From positions 3,547-67,546 of the forward strand of contig CAKPHZ010000001.1 in NCBI GenBank assembly GCA_934162265.1: a stretch of 64,000 nt of DNA. The letters run 5' to 3'. Shown piece by piece: positions 27,169 to 34,610 of this stretch. Within the stretch, counting starts at the first letter, position 1; every line of letters starts with the position of its first letter. Origin of the DNA: an uncultured Bacilli bacterium (lineage in GTDB: Bacteria > Bacillota_I > Bacilli_A > RF39 > UBA660). Under the pieces are notes generated by a model that searched no databases, was not told where the DNA came from, and saw only the letters and a program-made list of their open reading frames with translations. The translations under genes were made by a program, and so were the position numbers.

Positions 27169-29352
27169 TTATAATCTGCTTGGATCTATGTCAATTTCTA
27201 GTGATACTTTGCTATTGCCTTTATAGTGTGTATCTAAGTTTAATAAAGTACTTTTTAATCTATCATCCTTTTTATATTTTATAATACATTGTTGGTAATA
27301 AACATTATCTATTCTAAAGATATTTGCCATAGCAGGGCCTAATATGTAAGTGGTGGGACTTAGATTTTTTCGTAGATAATCCCCTACTTTTTTTGCTTCT
27401 TGGAAACTTAATTCATAATCTTTTGTAGAAATTCTAATTAAAATAATATAATAGTAAGGACTATAATTTAGTTGTTTTCTTATTTTCATTTCTTCTTGAT
27501 AAAAAGCTAAATAATTTTGCTCTTTGGCTAAGGTAATGCTATAATGATTGTTGTTATAAGTTTGAATGACAACTTCTCCTGATATCTCTCCTCTTCCTGC
27601 TCTTCCTGATACTTGGCAGAGTAATTGAAAAGTTCTTTCACTACTTCTAAAGTCTGGTATATTTAAACTGGCATCTGCGTTCATTACTCCTACTAAAGAT
27701 ACTTTAGGAAAATCTAATCCTTTAGCAATCATTTGGGTTCCTACTAAAATATCATATTTTTCTTCTCCAAAGTCTTTGATAATTTTTTGATGAGCACCTT
27801 TTTTGGAAGTTGTATCCATATCCATTCGAATGATTCTAGCCTCTTTAAAATCGTGATGTAACTCTTCTTCTAGTTTTTGAGTACCTATTCCAAAATCTTT
27901 CATATTATGGCTGTGACATTTTGGACATTCTTCTACTTTTGATGAGGCATAGCCACAATAGTGGCATCTTAACATATTACTTGTTTTATGATAGGTTAGG
28001 CTAATATCACAATTTGGACATTTTATTACTTCACCGCAATTTCCACAACTTGATACTGAGCTATATCCTCTTCTATTTAAAAGTAAAATAATTTGTTCTT
28101 TCTTTGCTAGTTTTTCTTTCATTTTTTGAAATAATAATTCAGAAAAAATAAAATGTCCTTTTTTTACTTCTTCTTTCATATTGGTAATATATACTTTTGG
28201 GAGTTGTCCATTTCCAGCCCTTTTGGTTAAGGTTAAGAGTTCATAGACTTTCTTCTGTGCTCGAGCCATACTTTCTAAGGAAGGAGTGGCACTTCCTAAT
28301 ACTATAGGAGCATGATGATACTGTCCTCTTAAAATTGCAACATCTCTGGCGTGATATCTTGGATGATTATCTTGTTTATAAGTAGAAGAATGTTCTTCAT
28401 CTATAATGATTATTCCGATATTTTTAAGGGGGGCAAATATTGCACTTCTTGCTCCAACAACAATATGTACTTCTCCATTTTTTATTTTTCGATATTCATC
28501 ATATTTTTCTCCCTCGCTTAATCCAGAATGAAGAATAGCGACATCTTGTCCAAATCTTAAAATAAATCTTTCTACAATTTGAGGAGTTAAACTAATTTCT
28601 GGTACGAGCATAATCGCGGTTTTTCCTTGTTCAATTACACCTTTTATTATATTCATATAAACTTCTGTTTTTCCTGCTCCTGTTACTCCATATAATAAAA
28701 ATATTTTTTCTTGATTTAATGAAGATAATACTTTTGATACGGCTTTTTGTTGTTCCTCATTTAAAATAACTTTTTTATCGGTTTTATCCGTTTCATATTG
28801 ATAGCGATAACTTTCTCTTGTTTCTAAATGACATATTCCTTTTTTTAGAATTGTTTTGATACTGCTATCTTGTCTTGTGATTAATAATTCTTTTTTTACT
28901 AAAAAGTTTTCTAGAACTTTTTTTTGTCCTTCATAGCGACATTTTTTTAAGTAATTGGATAAATCTTCTTTGCTCCAATCTAAGATAAGATAATGGTTCA
29001 TTTTTTTCTTAATTTCTGTCTTATTGCTTGCTTTTAATGCTTTGGGAAGCATAGCTTGATAAATGGAAATTCTTGAACATAATATTTTATTGGCAATAAT
29101 TTTTCCTAGCCATAACATTTCTTCATTTAAAATAGGTGTTTCATCTACTAATTCTTCTATTTCCTTTAATTCATAGTCTTCTTCTAATTGATTAGTAATT
29201 TCTATGACAAACCCCTCTAGTTTTTGATATCCAAAAGGGACTTTTACTCTGGATCCTATCTTTATTTTTGATATCATATTACTAGGAATTTGATAGGTAA
29301 ACATTTTATCTACTGCTTTTGCTGTAATTTCTACAATTACCTTTGCATACAT
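27169..29352 (-). CDS. priA: Primosomal protein N' (PriA helicase)
   Basis: Walker A motif GVTGAGKTEVY, a DEEH box and a Cys4 zinc-finger cluster (CGNCGEVIKCPNCD...CHYCG); 727 aa. Confidence 0.9.
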   Translation of the reverse strand: MYAKVIVEITAKAVDKMFTYQIPSNMISKIKIGSRVKVPFGYQKLEGFVIEITNQLEEDYELKEIEELVDETPILNEEMLWLGKIIANKILCSRISIYQAMLPKALKASNKTEIKKKMNHYLILDWSKEDLSNYLKKCRYEGQKKVLENFLVKKELLITRQDSSIKTILKKGICHLETRESYRYQYETDKTDKKVILNEEQQKAVSKVLSSLNQEKIFLLYGVTGAGKTEVYMNIIKGVIEQGKTAIMLVPEISLTPQIVERFILRFGQDVAILHSGLSEGEKYDEYRKIKNGEVHIVVGARSAIFAPLKNIGIIIIDEEHSSTYKQDNHPRYHARDVAILRGQYHHAPIVLGSATPSLESMARAQKKVYELLTLTKRAGNGQLPKVYITNMKEEVKKGHFIFSELLFQKMKEKLAKKEQIILLLNRRGYSSVSSCGNCGEVIKCPNCDISLTYHKTSNMLRCHYCGYASSKVEECPKCHSHNMKDFGIGTQKLEEELHHDFKEARIIRMDMDTTSKKGAHQKIIKDFGEEKYDILVGTQMIAKGLDFPKVSLVGVMNADASLNIPDFRSSERTFQLLCQVSGRAGRGEISGEVVIQTYNNNHYSITLAKEQNYLAFYQEEMKIRKQLNYSPYYYIILIRISTKDYELSFQEAKKVGDYLRKNLSPTTYILGPAMANIFRIDNVYYQQCIIKYKKDDRLKSTLLNLDTHYKGNSKVSLEIDIDPSRL

Positions 29353-29679
29353 CTTATCACCACACTTTTTGTTTTCTATGATATTTAATAATATTTTTTT
29401 ACTATTCTTAGACCGATACTATTTGTTCATCCATGATAAGCAAATTTATATGATAAATTCTTAGATAAATTCTAAAAATTCTTTTATATTATTATACCTC
29501 TATTTCTCTTTGCTTCTCAATAAGTTAACTAACTTTCTTTCTTTTTTTATTTATAACTATTAGTAAATTTATAGTCGTTTAGAGAATAAATTGCTACGGA
29601 AATGATTATAGATTAGTGTTTTAAAGAAGAAAAAGATAAAATAGCTAGTCGACTAATCTATTCATAACTTTCGGTCCTT

Positions 29680-29796
29680 TTAGCTCGCCTTCGAACTTCA
29701 ACACCTGGAATGCCGATGCGAACGGCTATAACGTCAATCCTTCTGGAATGCTTAATCATTGGGGGTGGACTTCGAATTCGATCGGCGTGCGCCCAG
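29680..29796 (+). repeat. DGR template repeat (TR), 117 bp
   Basis: GC-rich (about 52%) block in an otherwise ~27% GC intergenic region. Aligned without gaps to the reverse complement of 32111-32227, it shows 18 mismatches, and all 18 are adenines in this copy (18 of 26 TR adenines). All 91 non-A positions are identical. The 3' segment tcgatcggcgtgcgcccag is identical in both copies, like an initiation-of-mutagenic-homing (IMH) region. The TR is in frame with the VR and carries 8 AAY codons. Confidence 0.88.
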
Positions 29797-30084
29797 ATTC
29801 CTACTATAATTAGTAAATTACTAATACCACCGAGAATAATTGATCATGGTTGATTATGAGAAGAAGTAATAGCCTAGTTTTAGGCTATAATCTATATATA
29901 GATTGGAAACAAGATTAGTCAGTAAGGAAATAATCCTTAAGTATATAATATAGACGTAATAAAACGGTAGTTTTTGTTACTATTGCTATATTGAAGTTTT
30001 ATCTATTAAATGATAGATAGAACTTTTTCTTATTAAATTTTGTTCTATTCATTGAATAAAATTAATAGGAAAAGAAAGGAAAAA

Positions 30085-30495
30085 ATGACTTTAAAAGATG
30101 AATATCAAAAATTGAAACAAAAATATCCTAAAAAAATCATTCTTATTCAATCTGGAACCTTTTATGTTACTTTCTTTCAAGATGCTGAAATTCTTAATTA
30201 TCTTTTTTCTTATCAAATCCATGACGATAAAGTTGGCTTTCCTATTAAAATGAAAGATAAAATTTTATTTAATTTAAGAAATGAGAAGCTCAATTATTTA
30301 GTGCTAGATAAAGAAAAACGAGAGTTTTCTTTTGATGATAATGATATTTTCTCGTATGAGGAGATATTAAAAATTTCTTCTCAATATGCAAAACAATCTA
30401 GTGATACGCAAGAGCTGTTGGATAGAATAAAGTCTTTGATTGAGATTAATCCTAACTATTATGTTAAAATAAAGGAATTTATTGATGAACTCTAA
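30085..30495 (+). CDS. DGR accessory protein with MutS N-terminal mismatch-binding domain (MutS-I)-like fold (MSL-type)
   Basis: The segment TLKDEYQKLKQKYPKKIILIQSGTFYVTFFQDAE aligns with the MutS domain I consensus [35 protein letters not shown]. The mismatch-intercalating Phe is conserved (GTFY) but the Glu is replaced by Val. The start at 30085 has a GAAAGGA RBS. Confidence 0.6.
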   Translation: MTLKDEYQKLKQKYPKKIILIQSGTFYVTFFQDAEILNYLFSYQIHDDKVGFPIKMKDKILFNLRNEKLNYLVLDKEKREFSFDDNDIFSYEEILKISSQYAKQSSDTQELLDRIKSLIEINPNYYVKIKEFIDEL

Positions 30496-30823
30496 TTTTC
30501 AGTTATTACAAAAAACAGAGAAAACTATTCAATACATTCAAAAATTTTTACAAAATTATCCTAAAAAGGAATATATTTTAAAAGGAAATATAGAAAAAAA
30601 TACTTATTCGTTAATTGAATTGATTTTTTCGTATCAAATTAATCATACTGAACGTATTCGTCAAAAATACTTAAAGGATTTTTTAATTCAGTTATCTATG
30701 TTAAATTTTTATATGGAAATTAGTTTTAATAAAAAATATATTAGTACAAGGCAATATGAAGTGATTGGTAAATTTTTAATTGAAATTAGAAAAATTACTT
30801 ACGGAATTTTAAAAAGTGAATAA
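30485..30823 (+). CDS. avd: Accessory variability determinant (Avd)-like four-helix-bundle protein
   Basis: About 112-aa helical protein immediately upstream of and overlapping the RT start. Its size, position and YP-K/R pattern fit Avd (a 23S rRNA intervening-sequence-protein-like four-helix bundle). Confidence 0.6.
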   Translation: MNSNFQLLQKTEKTIQYIQKFLQNYPKKEYILKGNIEKNTYSLIELIFSYQINHTERIRQKYLKDFLIQLSMLNFYMEISFNKKYISTRQYEVIGKFLIEIRKITYGILKSE

Positions 30824-31939
30824 TCAATTCAATTACCAAACAATTCTAACGATTAAAAATTTACAAATTATTTATCATCAAATAAAATTAAATAGTAGAC
30901 ATAAAGAAAAATTTTTAAATTATGAATTATTTTTAACCTCAAATTTATTTACTATTTTTTTTATTTTAAAATCAAAAAAATATCATCACTCTTGCTATAA
31001 TATTTTCTTAATTGTTGATCCAAAATTTAGAATTATTATGAGTGAAAATATTAATGATAAAATTGTTAATCATTTTATTAGTCAATACTTGTTATTCCCA
31101 ACGTTAGAACCAAAAATGATTCCTATGAGTGTTGCTACTAGAAGAGGTAAAGGGACAGATTTAGGCATTCGTTATATAAAAAAATATATTCATTCATTAA
31201 AAGAAAAATATGATACGTTTTTTTTTTGAAATGTGATGTTCATAAATTTTTTTATTCTATTGATCATCAATGTTTAATTCATAAATTAGAAAAAATTTAT
31301 GAAAATAAAGATACAATGACCCTATTAACAGAAATTATTAATAGTACTAATCAGCCGTATATTAATCAAAAAATCAATTTAGAAATTGAAAAAATTAAAA
31401 AAAATATTTTAGCTTCTCACTCTTCTTTGAAAGAAAAAGAAAGAAAGATAAAAGAATTAAAACGATTACCACGATATGAATCAGGAAAAGGATTACCAAT
31501 AGGAAATATGAGTAGCCAAATATTAGCAACCTTTTATTTAAATGATATTGATCATTATATCAAAGAAAAATTACATATTAAGTATTATGTGCGCTACATG
31601 GATGATTTTATTTTATTTCACCCTAATAAAGAATATTTAAAGTTTTGCTTAAAAGAAATTGATGCTAAATTAAAAGAAATAAAATTACATTTAAATAATA
31701 AAACACAATTAGCAGACATACATCAAGGATTTAATTTTTTAGGATATCGCTTTTTATTAAAAGAAAAAAAATTAATTACAAAAATAAATAAAAAAACAAA
31801 AAGAAAAATATATCATCGTTGTAAAAATAAATCTCTTAAAGAAAAACAAAGTATATTAAAAAACTATAAGGGAGTATTTAAATATGCAGATGTTAATGGA
31901 TATATTTTTCATTTACAATTTCAAAAAAAGAAAAAATAA
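30816..31939 (+). CDS. DGR reverse transcriptase (reading frame interrupted by a -1 frame change at the T10 tract 31218-31227)
   Basis: RT motifs appear in order across two ORFs: motif 1 IVDPKFRII...DKIVNHFI and the SVATRRGKG region (30816-31229 frame), then motif 2 CDVHKFFYSIDHQ, motif 3 GLPIGNMSSQILATFYLNDID (the DGR-specific IGxxxSQ), YVRYMDDFILF (YxDD) and FNFLGYRF (31226-31939 frame). An eleventh T, or a -1 ribosomal slip on T TTT TTT next to TGA, fuses the two frames. Confidence 0.85.
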
Positions 31940-32033
31940 TTTTTCAATTATTTGGTATATGTAGTAGGAATATCAACCAAAAATTGCCCACAAAATGATG
32001 AGTCATTTTGTGGGTTTTCTTTCTTTTCGATGA

Positions 32034-34283
32034 TTATTTTGAAATAATATAAGGGTTTGCTGCCGTTCCATTTCCTTCGCTTATCAGAGAATCAGCATTC
32101 AGATTGATAACTGGGCGCACGCCGATCGAAGACGAAGGCCACCCCCAAGGAAAAAGCAGTCCAGAAGGATTGACGTAAGAGCCGAACGCAACGGCAGACC
32201 AGGTGAGGAAGCGCGAAGGCGAGCTAAGCCAATAGTAAGCTCCTGTATATAAATAATATTCTTTATTGTCATACCCTTGCTTTCCTCCGGCGTATGCTAC
32301 TTCATCTGCTGTTAATAATCCTACTGGATAGGTTAATTCTCCGTTACCTAATGTTGAAGTACTAGATACAGTAAATTGATCCACTTTTCTTGGACATTTA
32401 TAAGAAGGTGTTTTATTTGTTACATTTCTTTGATAAGAACCATAATAGGTAGTGCTATTTAAAGTAAAGCCATCTCCTGAAGCAATGCTTCTATCATTGC
32501 AAAATATATTATCAGTTAAATATTTTGAATATCCCTTATCCTGAATATTGGTTTTATACCAACTATCTATTTTTTGTTTAATAGCGCTATCATATTCATC
32601 TGTATAGGTGGATTCATAGCTTTTTGAAAGATAAGAATGATATGCTTTTACTTTTACTTGGCTTATATTTACGTAAGAAGCTATTTCTACTAATGTTGTA
32701 CAAGTTCCTGTTTTAGAGGTACTAAAACATGTGTATTTATAATTGCTACTATTACTTCCCCAAACACTTTCTAGTGTTCCACTTGTTATATTCCCCGATA
32801 ATGATAATTTTTTTGTTGAATCATTTGTCGTATAACTATCCGAAAAATAATAAGTATTATTGGCATTTATATTATTGTAATTTAAATTTGTTGCTGTTGT
32901 GTGTTGTAATGTTTTGGATAACCCATATTTATAACCTACCATCGCTGAATCATACGGGTCAGAATTAAAGGTTGAATTTCCGATGGTTACATTACCACCT
33001 GTATCTGATGTAGAAGTTCCAGAATATATCATTCTTATGCTCCCATCTCCGTTAATTCTAACAATTCTCCATATATATCCTGCAAATGATACATAATTAT
33101 TTAACACTCTACCTCTATAATAATAACTTTCTCCATAGTCATCATCTGCAACATATAAGGCACTACTAGATAAATTTACTATCTCTTTTGTTGAACTATA
33201 TTGATCTACTTTCGTTGCTTTATATGTTGTTGTCGTTCCTGATGTAGAAGTAGTCGCTGAGTAGATTACATACATTGTACTACAACTTCCAGTATCTGTT
33301 CTAACACAGGTGTAATACTTTTTATCACTTGTAGATAAATTATCTGTCATGTTTGTTCTAGTTGTATTAGAAATACTATATTGTCCTGTATTTGCATTGA
33401 ATGTATAATTTGTACCAAAATATATTTTATCTGTAGTACTTACTAAACTACTTCCTGTTAAATTAAAAGCATTTGTTTGTGTATATGTAATCATTGGAGA
33501 TGTTTCGTTAAAATTAGCTACTCTTGTTTTGATTTCTTCTTTTGCTTGTTCTACACTACTAGCATATTTGTCTGTTATTAATAAACAATCACTTAGTTTG
33601 GTGATATTATTATTTGTACAATAATCACTATCAAAATCACCAAATGTAGCTGTTGTTCCTGTTCCGTTGCTTGAATAAAATTCTACTAATCCTCCATATA
33701 CTCCTGTATCTGTTTTTATTTGATCTTTTCCATTTTCACTAATCCATAAAGCGATATAATATTCTTTTGTTTCATTTGGGGAAATTGAAAAGTTTTTTTC
33801 TAAATTAGATTTTTCCATACCATTTGTTTTATATTCACTTTTTCTAGTTGTTGCATTATCAAGTAATTCCCATTTTAAATTTTGATAAATGTTATTTGCT
33901 CCACTTGCAACAAGAGTGATGGAACCAGTTAACTTTAAGGTTGCTTTTCCGGTATTTTTAAGTGTTATTTTATAAACTTCACAGGAAACATTCTGATTAG
34001 AATCTACACAACTTCCAACCCCACCTGTTCCTTTTAAAGCATTTTTCAATGCATCATCCAACAGAGGAACTAACTTGGACGTCCCATTACTAGATGATGG
34101 AGTAACTTTATTTACTATTAAACTTACATTAGAAGTTGACATGTTTCCAGCAAATGTATTTGTATTTTTTCCTTCTGTATATAAATAAGCATATGTAGCA
34201 CTTGTCATTATTATAGTATAAATTATTATGCTAAAAGTGAATATTAAAATCTTTCTTTTCGATATTTTTTTTAAACTTCTCAT
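32034..34283 (-). CDS. DGR target (variable) protein: signal-anchored, Ser/Thr/Asn-rich surface protein with a C-terminal VR-encoded ligand-binding region (probable C-type-lectin/FGE-like fold)
   Basis: 749 aa. The N-terminus has a signal or transmembrane anchor (MRSLKKISKRKILIFTFSIIIYTIIMTSATYA), and the protein has many N-x-S/T sites. The C-terminus ...SSPSRFLTWSAVAFGSYVNPSGLLFPWGWPSSSIGVRPV is encoded by the VR, followed by 26 further residues. Confidence 0.8.
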   Translation of the reverse strand: MRSLKKISKRKILIFTFSIIIYTIIMTSATYAYLYTEGKNTNTFAGNMSTSNVSLIVNKVTPSSSNGTSKLVPLLDDALKNALKGTGGVGSCVDSNQNVSCEVYKITLKNTGKATLKLTGSITLVASGANNIYQNLKWELLDNATTRKSEYKTNGMEKSNLEKNFSISPNETKEYYIALWISENGKDQIKTDTGVYGGLVEFYSSNGTGTTATFGDFDSDYCTNNNITKLSDCLLITDKYASSVEQAKEEIKTRVANFNETSPMITYTQTNAFNLTGSSLVSTTDKIYFGTNYTFNANTGQYSISNTTRTNMTDNLSTSDKKYYTCVRTDTGSCSTMYVIYSATTSTSGTTTTYKATKVDQYSSTKEIVNLSSSALYVADDDYGESYYYRGRVLNNYVSFAGYIWRIVRINGDGSIRMIYSGTSTSDTGGNVTIGNSTFNSDPYDSAMVGYKYGLSKTLQHTTATNLNYNNINANNTYYFSDSYTTNDSTKKLSLSGNITSGTLESVWGSNSSNYKYTCFSTSKTGTCTTLVEIASYVNISQVKVKAYHSYLSKSYESTYTDEYDSAIKQKIDSWYKTNIQDKGYSKYLTDNIFCNDRSIASGDGFTLNSTTYYGSYQRNVTNKTPSYKCPRKVDQFTVSSTSTLGNGELTYPVGLLTADEVAYAGGKQGYDNKEYYLYTGAYYWLSSPSRFLTWSAVAFGSYVNPSGLLFPWGWPSSSIGVRPVINLNADSLISEGNGTAANPYIISK
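32111..32227 (-). repeat. DGR variable repeat (VR), 117 bp, at the 3' end of the target gene
   Basis: Reverse complement of the TR, with 18 substitutions located exclusively at TR adenine positions. It encodes residues SSPSRFLTWSAVAFGSYVNPSGLLFPWGWPSSSIGVRP. Relative to the TR there are 13 changed codons (for example N to R/L/S/F/Y, H to P, T to P). Confidence 0.88.
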
Positions 34284-34610
34284 CCTTTTACCTTCTTTTC
34301 TAAAGATGGGATTTCGAATAGTTACATCAATTTATATCACCATGTTCAATCAAATTCCTTACTACCATCTTACTATCTATTTTTATTCTACTATAAATTA
34401 GATAAAATGAAAAGATGTAACTCTAAATAACTTCAAAAATTCACTTCGGGCTATTGATCTCAAAAAGCACACATTTAAACCACCAGTAAACTCCTTATCA
34501 TTTAATTTACCAAACTACTCGAATGCAAATTTTTAGAAAAATTATTTGCTTTTTATTTTAGAATATTCATTGGCTGTTTAGAATTTTTCTAAATGGTCAC
34601 TACTACCAAA

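What the first reader, a model, noticed from the sequence alone, without database searches (positions are those of the whole stretch)
30085..30495. MutS mismatch-binding-domain-like small protein encoded inside the DGR, between TR and avd
The 136-aa product aligns with MutS domain I (Y..LK...P..I.L...G.FY..F..DA pattern). It retains the mismatch-intercalating Phe, but the catalytic-site Glu is replaced by Val, and the connector, clamp and ATPase domains are absent. A standalone mismatch-recognition module sitting next to a mutagenic RT suggests a role in recognising or protecting the A-mismatched cDNA:target heteroduplex during retrohoming. MutS-like accessory genes have, to my recollection, been listed only in large DGR surveys and have no known function.
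Basis: partly seen in the sequence, partly recalled or inferred. Interest (0 to 1): 0.75.

Follow-up and report, generated by a model that had tools for sequence, protein, structure and literature searches.

The report
MutS-like (Msl) accessory gene of DGR
This small gene does encode a stand-alone copy of the mismatch-binding domain of the repair protein MutS inside a mutagenic retroelement, but it belongs to an accessory-gene class (MSL/Msl) named in 2018 whose function nobody has yet tested.

Summary

The Phe of the MutS Phe-X-Glu motif is nearly invariant in the family (130/132). The Glu position is Val here and varies freely across the family. A C-terminal two-helix hairpin has no counterpart in MutS.

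Relatives are almost always DGR-linked. 18 of 19 species-representative loci have RT adjacent, and some relatives are fused to the RT C-terminus.

This is the MSL/Msl accessory class of Wu et al. 2018 (also Bacteroides and Legionella DGRs), so it is a new member of a known kind. I found no functional test in the literature.

My best mechanistic guess is an RT/Avd-associated wedge that binds the mismatched cDNA heteroduplex and hides it from host MutS without being able to signal repair. This is inferred, not shown.

Found in passing: the RT is split by a T10 run in all 10 readable independent assemblies (T9 in one), yet the VRs show recent retrohoming.

The parts
29680..29796 (+). Template repeat (TR), 117 nt with 26 adenines, same strand as msl-avd-RT
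   Evidence: Inverted-repeat pair I1 with 32111-32227, 85% complementary. All 18 differences from the VR lie at TR adenines and none elsewhere.
29797..30084 (+). TR-to-msl spacer (288 nt), presumably the 3' part of the DGR RNA. Contains a hairpin at 29869-29888.
   Evidence: Sequence; hairpin listed. No Rfam family matches. The role in priming is inferred by analogy with the BPP-1 spacer RNA and was not tested.
30085..30495 (+). msl: 136-aa MutS-like DGR accessory protein (the finding)
30085..30348 (+). Msl residues 1-88: MutS domain I core (helix, beta hairpin, helix, strand, helix, two strands). Calculated pI 7.9.
   Evidence: Secondary structure. Foldseek aligns about 80 columns at rmsd about 2 A to MutS/MSH3 domain I. 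pI.
30154..30168 (+). Codons for Gly24-Thr25-Phe26-Tyr27-Val28, the counterpart of MutS Gly-Asp-Phe-Tyr-Glu. Phe is retained and Glu is replaced by Val.
   Evidence: HMM alignment to Taq MutS. Across 132 diverse members: G24 130, F26 130, Y27 116. Position 28 varies: V19 R18 K15 I14 Y12 H11 E11.
30352..30489 (+). Msl residues 90-135: acidic two-helix hairpin (pI 4.65) absent from MutS, ending in the conserved KIKEFIDEL
   Evidence: Helices 90-121 and 124-135. Invariant Y91, I115, K128, I129, I133, D134, E135 among close relatives. Part of this conservation may reflect the overlapping avd start and its AAGGAA ribosome-binding site (sequence).
30485..30823 (+). avd (112 aa from the ATG; pI 9.6). 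Its start overlaps the msl stop by 11 nt.
   Evidence: Pfam bAvd E 6e-12. NCBIfam DivGenRetAVD E 4.5e-13. The same 11-nt overlap occurs in homologous loci.
30816..31229 (+). DGR reverse transcriptase, N-terminal 137-aa part. Overlaps avd by 8 nt and ends at a TGA created by the T10 run.
   Evidence: No Pfam hit alone. Aligns to the N-terminal third of the intact 371-aa RT of L001.
31218..31227 (+). T10 homopolymer that splits the RT reading frame. T11 (or T8) would restore one ORF.
   Evidence: Sequence compared with the intact homolog. T10 in 9 of the 10 independent assemblies that cover the run, T9 in one.
31226..31939 (+). DGR reverse transcriptase, C-terminal 237-aa part (palm motifs and thumb)
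   Evidence: Pfam RVT_1 E 2.4e-14, profile positions 71-205.
31986..32015 (.). 13-bp hairpin between the convergent RT and target genes. Terminator-like on both strands. It lies just 3' of the target stop, downstream of the VR.
   Evidence: Any role as the DGR target-recognition hairpin is an untested inference.
32111..32227 (-). Variable repeat (VR) near the 3' end of the target gene
   Evidence: Four strains carry four different VRs, each differing from its own TR only at adenines: 18/0, 12/0, 20/0, 15/0.
32034..34283 (-). Target (variable protein) gene, 749 aa, with a hydrophobic N-terminal segment. No Pfam, NCBIfam or PHROG family.

Best explanation
What it is (high confidence, about 0.9). 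The gene is an Msl (MutS-like) accessory gene of a chromosomal DGR in an uncultured gut Bacilli bacterium. It is made with Avd and RT from one TR-msl-avd-RT transcript with overlapping, probably translationally coupled, reading frames.

How it most likely works (inferred; the confidence value of 0.4 is for this part). Msl is a nucleic-acid-binding subunit that travels with the RT-Avd-RNA particle. Its MutS domain-I core would use the invariant Gly-x-Phe-Tyr hairpin as a wedge. That wedge would grip the distorted, multiply mismatched duplex that the adenine-mutagenised cDNA forms with the parental VR strand, or already with the template RNA.

Msl lacks the Glu of Phe-X-Glu and the connector, clamp and ATPase domains. 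It therefore cannot license MutL-dependent repair. The net effect would be to stabilise the intermediate and hide it from host MutS, which otherwise restores the parental VR.

The acidic C-terminal helical hairpin is proposed to dock Msl onto the basic Avd or onto RT.

Shown: fold, motif state, operon position, DGR linkage, RT fusions. Inferred: DNA or mismatch binding, the contact with RT/Avd, and the anti-repair outcome.
For: Fold and motif.
- Pfam MutS_I scores above cutoff.
- The model is confident.
- F26 aligns with the intercalating Phe and is kept in 130 of 132 diverse members. The Glu position is free and is often Arg or Lys (33 of 132), which is compatible with nucleic-acid contact but not with MutS-type licensing.

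Association with the RT machinery.
- msl-avd-RT are contiguous in 17 of 19 species-representative genomes, and RT is adjacent in 18 of 19, at 38-100% Msl identity and in different chromosomal contexts.
- More distant members (28-34% identity) show other gene orders but still sit beside avd or RT.
- Natural RT-Msl fusions place the domain directly after the RT thumb (P0097, P0106, P0173, P0214). This is Rosetta-stone evidence for physical association.
- The 11-nt msl/avd and 8-nt avd/RT overlaps are conserved.

Relevance of mismatch repair.
- Deleting host mutS raised VR mutagenesis 5-10 fold in an Msl-less Bacteroides DGR, with an all-or-nothing repair pattern (10.1101/2024.11.15.621889).
- Engineered DGR systems in E. 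coli add a dominant-negative MutL or delete mutS.

Independent reuse of the module. A 2323-aa polyvalent protein carries four MutS_I modules next to an ArdC anti-restriction domain and no ATPase.

The DGR around the gene is or was recently active.
Against: - No biochemical or genetic test of any Msl exists in the literature I could search.
- In full MutS much of the DNA affinity comes from the clamp domains and from dimerisation (my own knowledge). An isolated domain I may bind weakly.
- The conserved Gly-x-Phe-Tyr hairpin is part of the fold. From memory, it is also kept in MSH2, whose domain I does not intercalate. Conservation of Phe is therefore not proof of wedge function.
- This Msl is mildly acidic overall (pI 5.5).
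- The three Msl-carrying Bacteroides DGRs were the low-activity ones, 100-10,000 fold below the two Msl-less ones. That comparison is confounded by lower transcription.
- Whether the host has MutS/MutL at all is unknown. None lies in the 64-kb window, and reduced-genome Bacilli may lack them.
- The Bordetella phage DGR needs neither Msl nor MutS (PMC5758913).
Confidence: 0.4

Rival explanations
1. Target-DNA-binding module. Msl acts like the DNA-binding 'D' domain that follows the thumb in group II intron RTs. It would hold the RT-Avd-cDNA particle on the VR/IMH region or on a hairpin, fork or flap there, to promote cDNA integration, independently of mismatches and of mismatch repair.
For: - In the fusions the domain sits directly after the RT thumb, where group II intron RTs carry their DNA-binding domain (the domain order of group II RTs is my own knowledge).
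- The Glu that gives MutS its mismatch discrimination is not conserved.
- A hairpin lies just downstream of the VR.
- E. coli reconstitutions point to integration at replication forks (PMC12875486).
Against: - No sequence-specific DNA-binding features are evident.
- Most DGRs integrate cDNA without Msl (74% have avd, only 16 of 372 have MSL).
- The hairpin may simply be a terminator.
Confidence: 0.2
2. cDNA-synthesis factor. Msl binds the RNA:cDNA hybrid as it leaves the RT. It would stabilise mispaired primer termini opposite template adenines, or improve processivity, so that it shapes the yield or spectrum of mutagenised cDNA rather than its later fate.
For: - RT fusions and operon coupling.
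- Arg or Lys is frequent at the base-contacting position.
Against: - Bordetella RT-Avd alone reproduces adenine mutagenesis in vitro (cited).
- Mutational density is the same across distant DGRs with and without Msl.
Confidence: 0.12
3. Protein decoy. Msl does not bind nucleic acid. It mimics MutS domain I to bind a host protein (MutS, MutL or the beta clamp) and so blocks or redirects mismatch repair near the element.
For: - Host MutS restricts DGR output.
- Msl has an acidic overall charge and a conserved C-terminal peptide, KIKEFIDEL, that could be a docking motif.
Against: - MutS dimerises and contacts MutL through other domains (my own knowledge).
- The fusions to RT argue for action at the particle.
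- Conservation of the C-terminus is partly explained by the overlapping avd start.
Confidence: 0.08
4. Brake or quality control. Msl recognises heavily mismatched intermediates and limits retrohoming, keeping diversification rare.
For: - The three Msl-carrying Bacteroides DGRs are 100-10,000 fold less active than the two Msl-less ones.
- In this element the RT is additionally throttled by a T10 frameshift.
Against: - The Bacteroides difference tracks transcription of avd, TR and rt.
- It is hard to see why a brake would be fused to the RT in some elements.
Confidence: 0.08
5. Decaying passenger. Msl is a remnant of a captured mutS 5' end and has no present function.
For: - The RT next to it is frameshifted.
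- One orphan msl lies without RT within 5 kb.
Against: - 1243 representative clusters keep the same size and invariant residues.
- Synteny is conserved down to 28-38% identity.
- Window versus L042 shows 3 synonymous and 1 non-synonymous change in msl (too few to be decisive).
- The fold prediction is confident.
Confidence: 0.04

Closest known systems
MSL / Msl (MutS-like) accessory proteins of DGRs: Wu et al. 2018 'Architecture D' (includes the Legionella DGR); Bacteroides Bfr, Bth and Bun DGRs (Macadangdang et al. 2024 preprint)
   Same: - Small protein (the class spans 112-283 aa).
- Encoded inside the cassette.
- Always accompanied by avd and not by HRDC.
- Homology limited to the MutS mismatch-recognition domain.
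- Function untested.
   Different: - This subfamily comes from uncultured gut Bacilli with 27% GC and has the order TR-msl-avd-RT.
- It is mildly acidic (pI 5.5 against 7.2 +/- 1.7 for the class).
- I could not compare it directly with the 16 reference sequences, because the supplement is not held.
Domain I (mismatch-binding domain) of bacterial MutS and eukaryotic MSH6
   Same: - Same N-terminal helix.
- Same Gly-x-Phe-Tyr hairpin and Asp-Ala helix start.
- Same Gly-(Ile/Phe)-Pro strand.
   Different: - The Glu of Phe-X-Glu is Val here and is unconstrained in the family.
- The basic loop between the first helix and the Gly-Phe-Pro strand is shorter.
- There are no connector, core, clamp or ATPase domains.
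- There is an extra C-terminal helical hairpin.
Domain I of MSH2 / MSH3 (subunits that lack the Phe-X-Glu mismatch contact)
   Different: Those domains work inside an ATPase heterodimer, whereas Msl stands alone. The statement that MSH2 keeps Phe but not Glu is from memory and was not tested here.
DGR reverse transcriptases with a C-terminal MutS_I extension (three noted by Wu et al. 2018)
   Same: The same Msl-type domain is used with the same partner. P0097, P0106 and P0173 match the Msl profile at E 1e-16 to 1e-21 and carry RVT_1.
   Different: Here the domain is a separate polypeptide encoded upstream of avd, not fused to the RT.
HRDC accessory proteins of Treponema-type DGRs
   Same: Another small nucleic-acid-binding domain borrowed from DNA-repair or recombination proteins and used as a DGR accessory. 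It is mutually exclusive with MSL.
   Different: Unrelated fold and family.
Dominant-negative MutL(E32K) or delta-mutS used in engineered DGR and recombineering systems
   Same: If the shielding idea is right, the outcome is the same: mismatched cDNA edits escape mismatch repair.
   Different: Those tools disable repair globally through MutL or MutS. Msl would act locally. This is an analogy of function only and is unproven.

Membership tests
MSL/Msl DGR accessory class (Wu et al. 2018) | Small protein (112-283 aa) | tested here: met
   136 aa. Family members are mostly 120-150 aa.
MSL/Msl DGR accessory class (Wu et al. 2018) | Encoded within a DGR cassette (TR, RT, and a VR-bearing target with adenine-specific differences) | tested here: met
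   TR 29680-29796, RT 30816-31939, VR 32111-32227. There are 18 TR/VR differences, all at TR adenines.
MSL/Msl DGR accessory class (Wu et al. 2018) | Co-occurs with avd; no HRDC gene in the cassette | tested here: met
   avd is the next ORF. The only cassette ORFs are msl, avd and RT, and none has an HRDC hit.
MSL/Msl DGR accessory class (Wu et al. 2018) | Detectable homology to MutS (mismatch-recognition domain) | tested here: met
   [not shown]
MSL/Msl DGR accessory class (Wu et al. 2018) | Roughly neutral charge (pI 7.2 +/- 1.7) | tested here: inconclusive
   This protein has pI 5.5, at the lower edge of the range. The median of 173 relatives is 7.7. This feature is descriptive rather than defining.
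MSL/Msl DGR accessory class (Wu et al. 2018) | Sequence similarity to the 16 reference MSL proteins | not testable with these tools
   The paper's supplementary data are not held. The afdb50 library was unavailable.
MutS_I domain family (PF01624) | Score above Pfam's gathering cutoff | tested here: met
   32.2 bits against 20.6, but only profile positions 5-46 of 113 are matched.
MutS_I domain family (PF01624) | Domain I fold | tested here: met
   [not shown]
MutS_I domain family (PF01624) | Phe-X-Glu mismatch-contact motif | tested here: not met
   Phe is present (F26), but Glu is replaced by Val. Only 11 of 132 family members have Glu at this position. The motif defines the mismatch-reading subunits, not the fold.
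MutS/MSH mismatch-repair ATPases (MutS1) | Connector, core/lever, clamp and ABC ATPase domains; full-length equivalog score | tested here: not met
   The protein is 136 aa. NCBIfam MutS equivalogs score 20.2 and 16.2 bits against cutoffs of 480 and 641.7. No other MutS Pfam domains match.
Diversity-generating retroelement (the surrounding element) | Intact reverse transcriptase gene | tested here: not met
   The RT is split into 137-aa and 237-aa ORFs at a T10 run. Homologs have a single ORF of 371-375 aa.
Diversity-generating retroelement (the surrounding element) | Evidence of TR-to-VR adenine mutagenesis | tested here: met
   Four strains carry four different VRs, with differences only at TR adenines. 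A strain-specific TR C-to-T change is copied into that strain's VR.

The most novel reading that the evidence does not exclude
Msl is a retroelement-encoded anti-mismatch-repair device: a repair-incompetent copy of the MutS mismatch sensor, delivered by the RT-Avd particle. It would occupy the cluster of cDNA:VR mismatches so that host MutS cannot restore the parental sequence. The same ATPase-less MutS_I module, repeated four times next to an ArdC anti-restriction domain in a polyvalent protein that looks mobile-element-borne (P0099), would then be a wider strategy by which incoming DNA evades the MutS barrier to recombination.
Probability: 0.25. Interest if true: 0.75.

Novelty: new member of a known kind. 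Interest (0 to 1): 0.35.

Why it matters
How DGR cDNA replaces the VR, and how a heteroduplex with a dozen or more mismatches survives mismatch repair, are open questions. Recent work shows that host MutS cuts DGR output 5-10 fold. Engineers have to disable MutS or MutL to make DGRs work in E. coli.

Msl is the obvious natural candidate for a built-in answer, yet it has never been tested. This locus adds no new class. The analysis here does supply concrete handles for a test:
- a large family (about 1,200 representative clusters), tightly DGR-linked and compact at about 136 aa;
- an invariant Phe hairpin;
- an unconstrained Glu position;
- a family-specific C-terminal hairpin;
- natural RT fusions.

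If Msl proves to be a local anti-repair factor, it could replace global mismatch-repair knock-outs in DGR-based directed evolution.

Tried and rejected
I sampled distant members with the look-up of encoding contigs instead.
- The afdb50 fold library was not available.
- The supplements of Wu et al. are not held, so no direct comparison with the reference MSL sequences was possible.
- tblastn of Msl against the phage and plasmid collections found no match. This subfamily looks chromosomal.
- There is no Rfam family in 29300-32300.
- The promoter scan was not above shuffled expectation, 20 found against 23 expected, so I make no promoter claim.
- phmmer of the single protein against PDB put designed helical repeats first and MutS only at E 0.25-1.7. 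Sequence alone is weak; the profile and the fold carry the assignment.
- Weak PAH hits to the C-terminal hairpin (E 0.02-0.03, below cutoff) were rejected as compositional or helical similarity.
- dN/dS on the split RT was uninformative: the window and the most diverged copy (L042) are 99.8-100% identical in the RT.
- tblastn of a recalled E. coli MutS sequence against the window found nothing. This says nothing about the rest of the genome.
- The 30-nt direct repeat between the 5' regions of msl and avd (87% identical) was judged a probable chance match in AT-rich DNA.
- An alternative TTG start at 30040 (151 aa) was rejected, because relatives start at the ATG-equivalent Met.

Full report
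**1. The observation**

The ORF at 30085..30495 (+) exists as described. It has an ATG start, encodes 136 aa, and has an AGGA motif just upstream.

Pfam MutS_I (PF01624) is hit at E 1.4e-7 and 32.2 bits against a gathering cutoff of 20.6. Only residues 5-46 are matched, out of a 113-position profile. Sequence searches against solved structures are weak: MutS appears at E 0.08-1.7. A tblastn with E. coli MutS does not even find the gene. The fold therefore had to be tested.

An AlphaFold2 model built on 19 relatives is confident (mean pLDDT 89.8).
- Foldseek against the PDB returns only MutS, MSH3 and related chains among its 50 listed matches. The best E is 7e-5, with rmsd about 2 A over about 80 columns.

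Residues 1-88 are therefore a complete minimal MutS domain I. Residues 90-135 form a two-helix hairpin that MutS does not have.

**2. The motif**

In the profile alignment to Taq MutS, Msl F26 pairs with Phe39 and V28 with Glu41, which are E. coli Phe36 and Glu38. 'Catalytic-site' is the wrong term, because that Glu contacts the mismatched base and licenses repair (my own knowledge).

I aligned 132 diverse family members.

| Position | Most common residue | Count of 132 |
|---|---|---|
| 24 | Gly | 130 |
| 26 | Phe | 130 |
| 27 | Tyr | 116 |
| 33 | Asp | 129 |
| 43 | Tyr | 127 |
| 52 | Phe | 129 |
| 64 | Leu | 129 |
| 91 | Tyr | 128 |

Position 28 is free: V19, R18, K15, I14, Y12, H11, E11 and others. 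So the family keeps the wedge hairpin and has dropped the residue that gives MutS its discrimination and signalling.

One caution applies. The Gly-x-Phe-Tyr hairpin is also part of the fold. From memory, it is retained in MSH2, whose domain I does not intercalate.

**3. The surroundings**

The gene lies in a genuine DGR.
- TR 29680-29796 (+) and VR 32111-32227 (on the minus strand, near the 3' end of a 749-aa ORF) are 85% identical. All 18 differences fall at TR adenines.
- The next ORF, 30485-30823, is Avd (Pfam bAvd E 6e-12; NCBIfam DivGenRetAVD). Its ATG overlaps the msl stop by 11 nt.
- The RT follows with an 8-nt overlap (RVT_1 E 2.4e-14).
- A strong hairpin at 31986-32015 separates the convergent RT and target genes.
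- The flanks are housekeeping genes (priA, rpmF, yceD, efp), so the element is chromosomal.
- An identical Msl lies on contig CAKOUR010000016.1 of an 'uncultured Bacilli bacterium' MAG from Hadza gut metagenomes.
- The window is 26.8% GC.

**4. The family and its link to DGRs**

A word-indexed search found 53 clusters at 38-99% identity, nearly all carrying PF01624. An exhaustive profile search of 1.84 billion representatives found 1243 at E <= 1e-3 and 465 at E <= 1e-10. Most of the best 150 are stand-alone proteins of roughly 120-150 aa, and none is a full-length MutS.

Gene context:
- In 19 species-representative genomes, 18 have an RT gene next to msl. In 17 the order is msl-avd-RT and contiguous, and in one the RT is upstream. 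Likewise 18 of 19 have avd.
- The chromosomal neighbourhoods differ between lineages, so the trio moves or persists as a unit.
- More distant members (27-34% identity) give avd-orf-RT-msl, target-msl-avd and msl-avd-RT.
- One msl is an orphan: it sits beside a target-like gene with no RT within 5 kb.
- Several family members are the C-terminal domain of the RT itself: P0097, P0106 and P0173 at 489-507 aa, plus partial forms and P0214.

**5. What is already known**

Wu et al. 2018 (PMC5758913) defined MSL ('MutS-like') as one of four DGR accessory gene classes.
- It occurs in 16 of 372 DGRs.
- The proteins are 112-283 aa with pI 7.2 +/- 1.7.
- MSL is always found with avd and never with HRDC.
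- It defines 'Architecture D' and includes the Legionella DGR.
- The paper also noted three RTs with a C-terminal MutS_I motif.

Macadangdang et al. (10.1101/2024.11.15.621889) list Msl in three Bacteroides DGRs. They also show that deleting host mutS raises VR mutagenesis 5-10 fold in an Msl-less element, with an all-or-nothing pattern. In that study the three Msl-carrying elements were the poorly active, poorly transcribed ones.

E. coli reconstitutions delete mutS or add dominant-negative MutL. One preprint explicitly cites the natural MutS-like genes as the reason. None of these papers tests Msl itself.

**6. Mechanism**

Shown:
- a domain I fold with the wedge hairpin;
- loss of the licensing Glu and of every domain needed to clamp DNA, hydrolyse ATP or recruit MutL;
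- obligatory genetic linkage with avd and RT, with overlapping reading frames;
- occasional covalent fusion to the RT just after the thumb.

Inferred: Msl rides on the RT-Avd-RNA particle and grips the mismatched or distorted duplex made by the mutagenised cDNA. This would stabilise the duplex and keep host MutS off. The acidic C-terminal hairpin (pI 4.65) may dock on the basic Avd (pI 9.6).

I give this about 0.4. Rivals:

| Rival | Confidence |
|---|---|
| Mismatch-independent target-DNA-binding module, analogous to the D domain of group II intron RTs | 0.2 |
| cDNA-synthesis helper acting on the RNA:cDNA hybrid | 0.12 |
| Protein decoy for MutS, MutL or the clamp | 0.08 |
| Brake on retrohoming | 0.08 |
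| Functionless remnant | 0.04 |

The main weaknesses of the preferred model are these:
- there are no data on any Msl;
- an isolated domain I may bind DNA weakly;
- the Bacteroides activity correlation runs the wrong way, though it is confounded by transcription;
- the mismatch-repair status of the host is unknown.

**7. Things seen in passing**

(a) *The split RT.* The RT is split into 137-aa and 237-aa ORFs by a T10 run at 31218-31227. The intact homolog shows that T11 would restore the frame. Of the 10 independent assemblies that reach this position, from several studies and assemblers, 9 have T10 and one has T9. Two of the T10 contigs have different flanking genes.

Four strains nevertheless have four different VRs, each differing from its own TR only at adenines. 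A strain-specific TR C-to-T change is mirrored in that strain's VR. Retrohoming therefore went on after these lineages split. This suggests slipped-strand phase variation or transcriptional slippage at the run, rather than a dead RT.

The msl, avd and RT genes are 99-100% identical between the window and the copy with different flanks (L042), but the target gene is only 91% identical. For that reason dN/dS on the RT is uninformative.

(b) *A polyvalent protein.* A 2323-aa protein (P0099) carries DUF285 repeats, four MutS_I modules and an ArdC N-terminal domain.

(c) *Viral stand-alone copies.* Stand-alone MutS_I proteins also occur in gut phage contigs and in a Klosneuvirus.

**8. Verdict**

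- The gene belongs to the published MSL/Msl class.
- Interest is moderate (0.35). The function is a live, testable question tied to how DGRs escape mismatch repair, but the existence of such genes is not news.

Noticed in passing
window 31218-31227 (within RT, 30816-31939); also L007-L012, L040-L042, L044: The DGR reverse transcriptase is split by a T10 run, and T11 would restore one ORF. The run is T10 in 9 of the 10 independent assemblies that cover it and T9 in one. VRs of four strains nevertheless differ at TR adenines only, and a strain-specific TR change is copied into that strain's VR. This suggests phase variation or transcriptional slippage gating RT expression rather than a dead gene.
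   Followed up: partly
L042 and L044 compared with window 29500-34400: The same msl-avd-RT cassette (99-100% identical, also T10) sits in a different flanking context, with no priA upstream and an HTH gene beyond the target. Its target gene is only about 91% identical (742 aa against 749 aa). The cassette is either mobile or the target is evolving much faster than the DGR core.
   Followed up: partly
P0099 (from the family search; not in the window): A 2323-aa polyvalent-type protein combines DUF285 leucine-rich repeats, four tandem MutS_I modules (Pfam E 2e-54) and an ArdC N-terminal anti-restriction domain, with no MutS ATPase. This is an independent reuse of the stand-alone mismatch-binding module in what looks like a mobile-element protein.
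   Followed up: partly
L035 5001-5408: An orphan msl (29% identical to the window protein) lies directly downstream of a 685-aa target-like gene. No avd or RT is detectable within 5 kb, and pheS/pheT follow. It may be a decayed DGR or a trans-acting arrangement.
   Followed up: partly
L045 3387-4816: An RT-Msl fusion whose RT is itself split into 227-aa and 254-aa ORFs, by a frameshift near the IGxxxSQ motif that is not in a long homopolymer. It may be a pseudogene or an assembly error.
   Followed up: no
window 30105-30134 and 30538-30567: A 30-nt direct repeat (87% identical) lies near the 5' ends of msl and avd. It encodes 'QKLKQKYPKK' and 'QKFLQNYPKK'. This is probably chance in AT-rich DNA, but it falls at equivalent N-terminal positions of the two accessory proteins.
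   Followed up: no
window 31986-32015: A 13-bp perfect hairpin lies between the convergent RT and target genes, about 20 nt beyond the target stop and about 100 nt beyond the VR. It is a bidirectional terminator candidate and could double as the hairpin or cruciform that some DGRs need for target recognition.
   Followed up: no
BFVD hits to the Msl model: Stand-alone MutS domain I proteins of 74-153 aa are predicted in uncultured Siphoviridae and Myoviridae gut phage contigs and in Klosneuvirus. I did not check whether those phage copies sit in DGRs.
   Followed up: no
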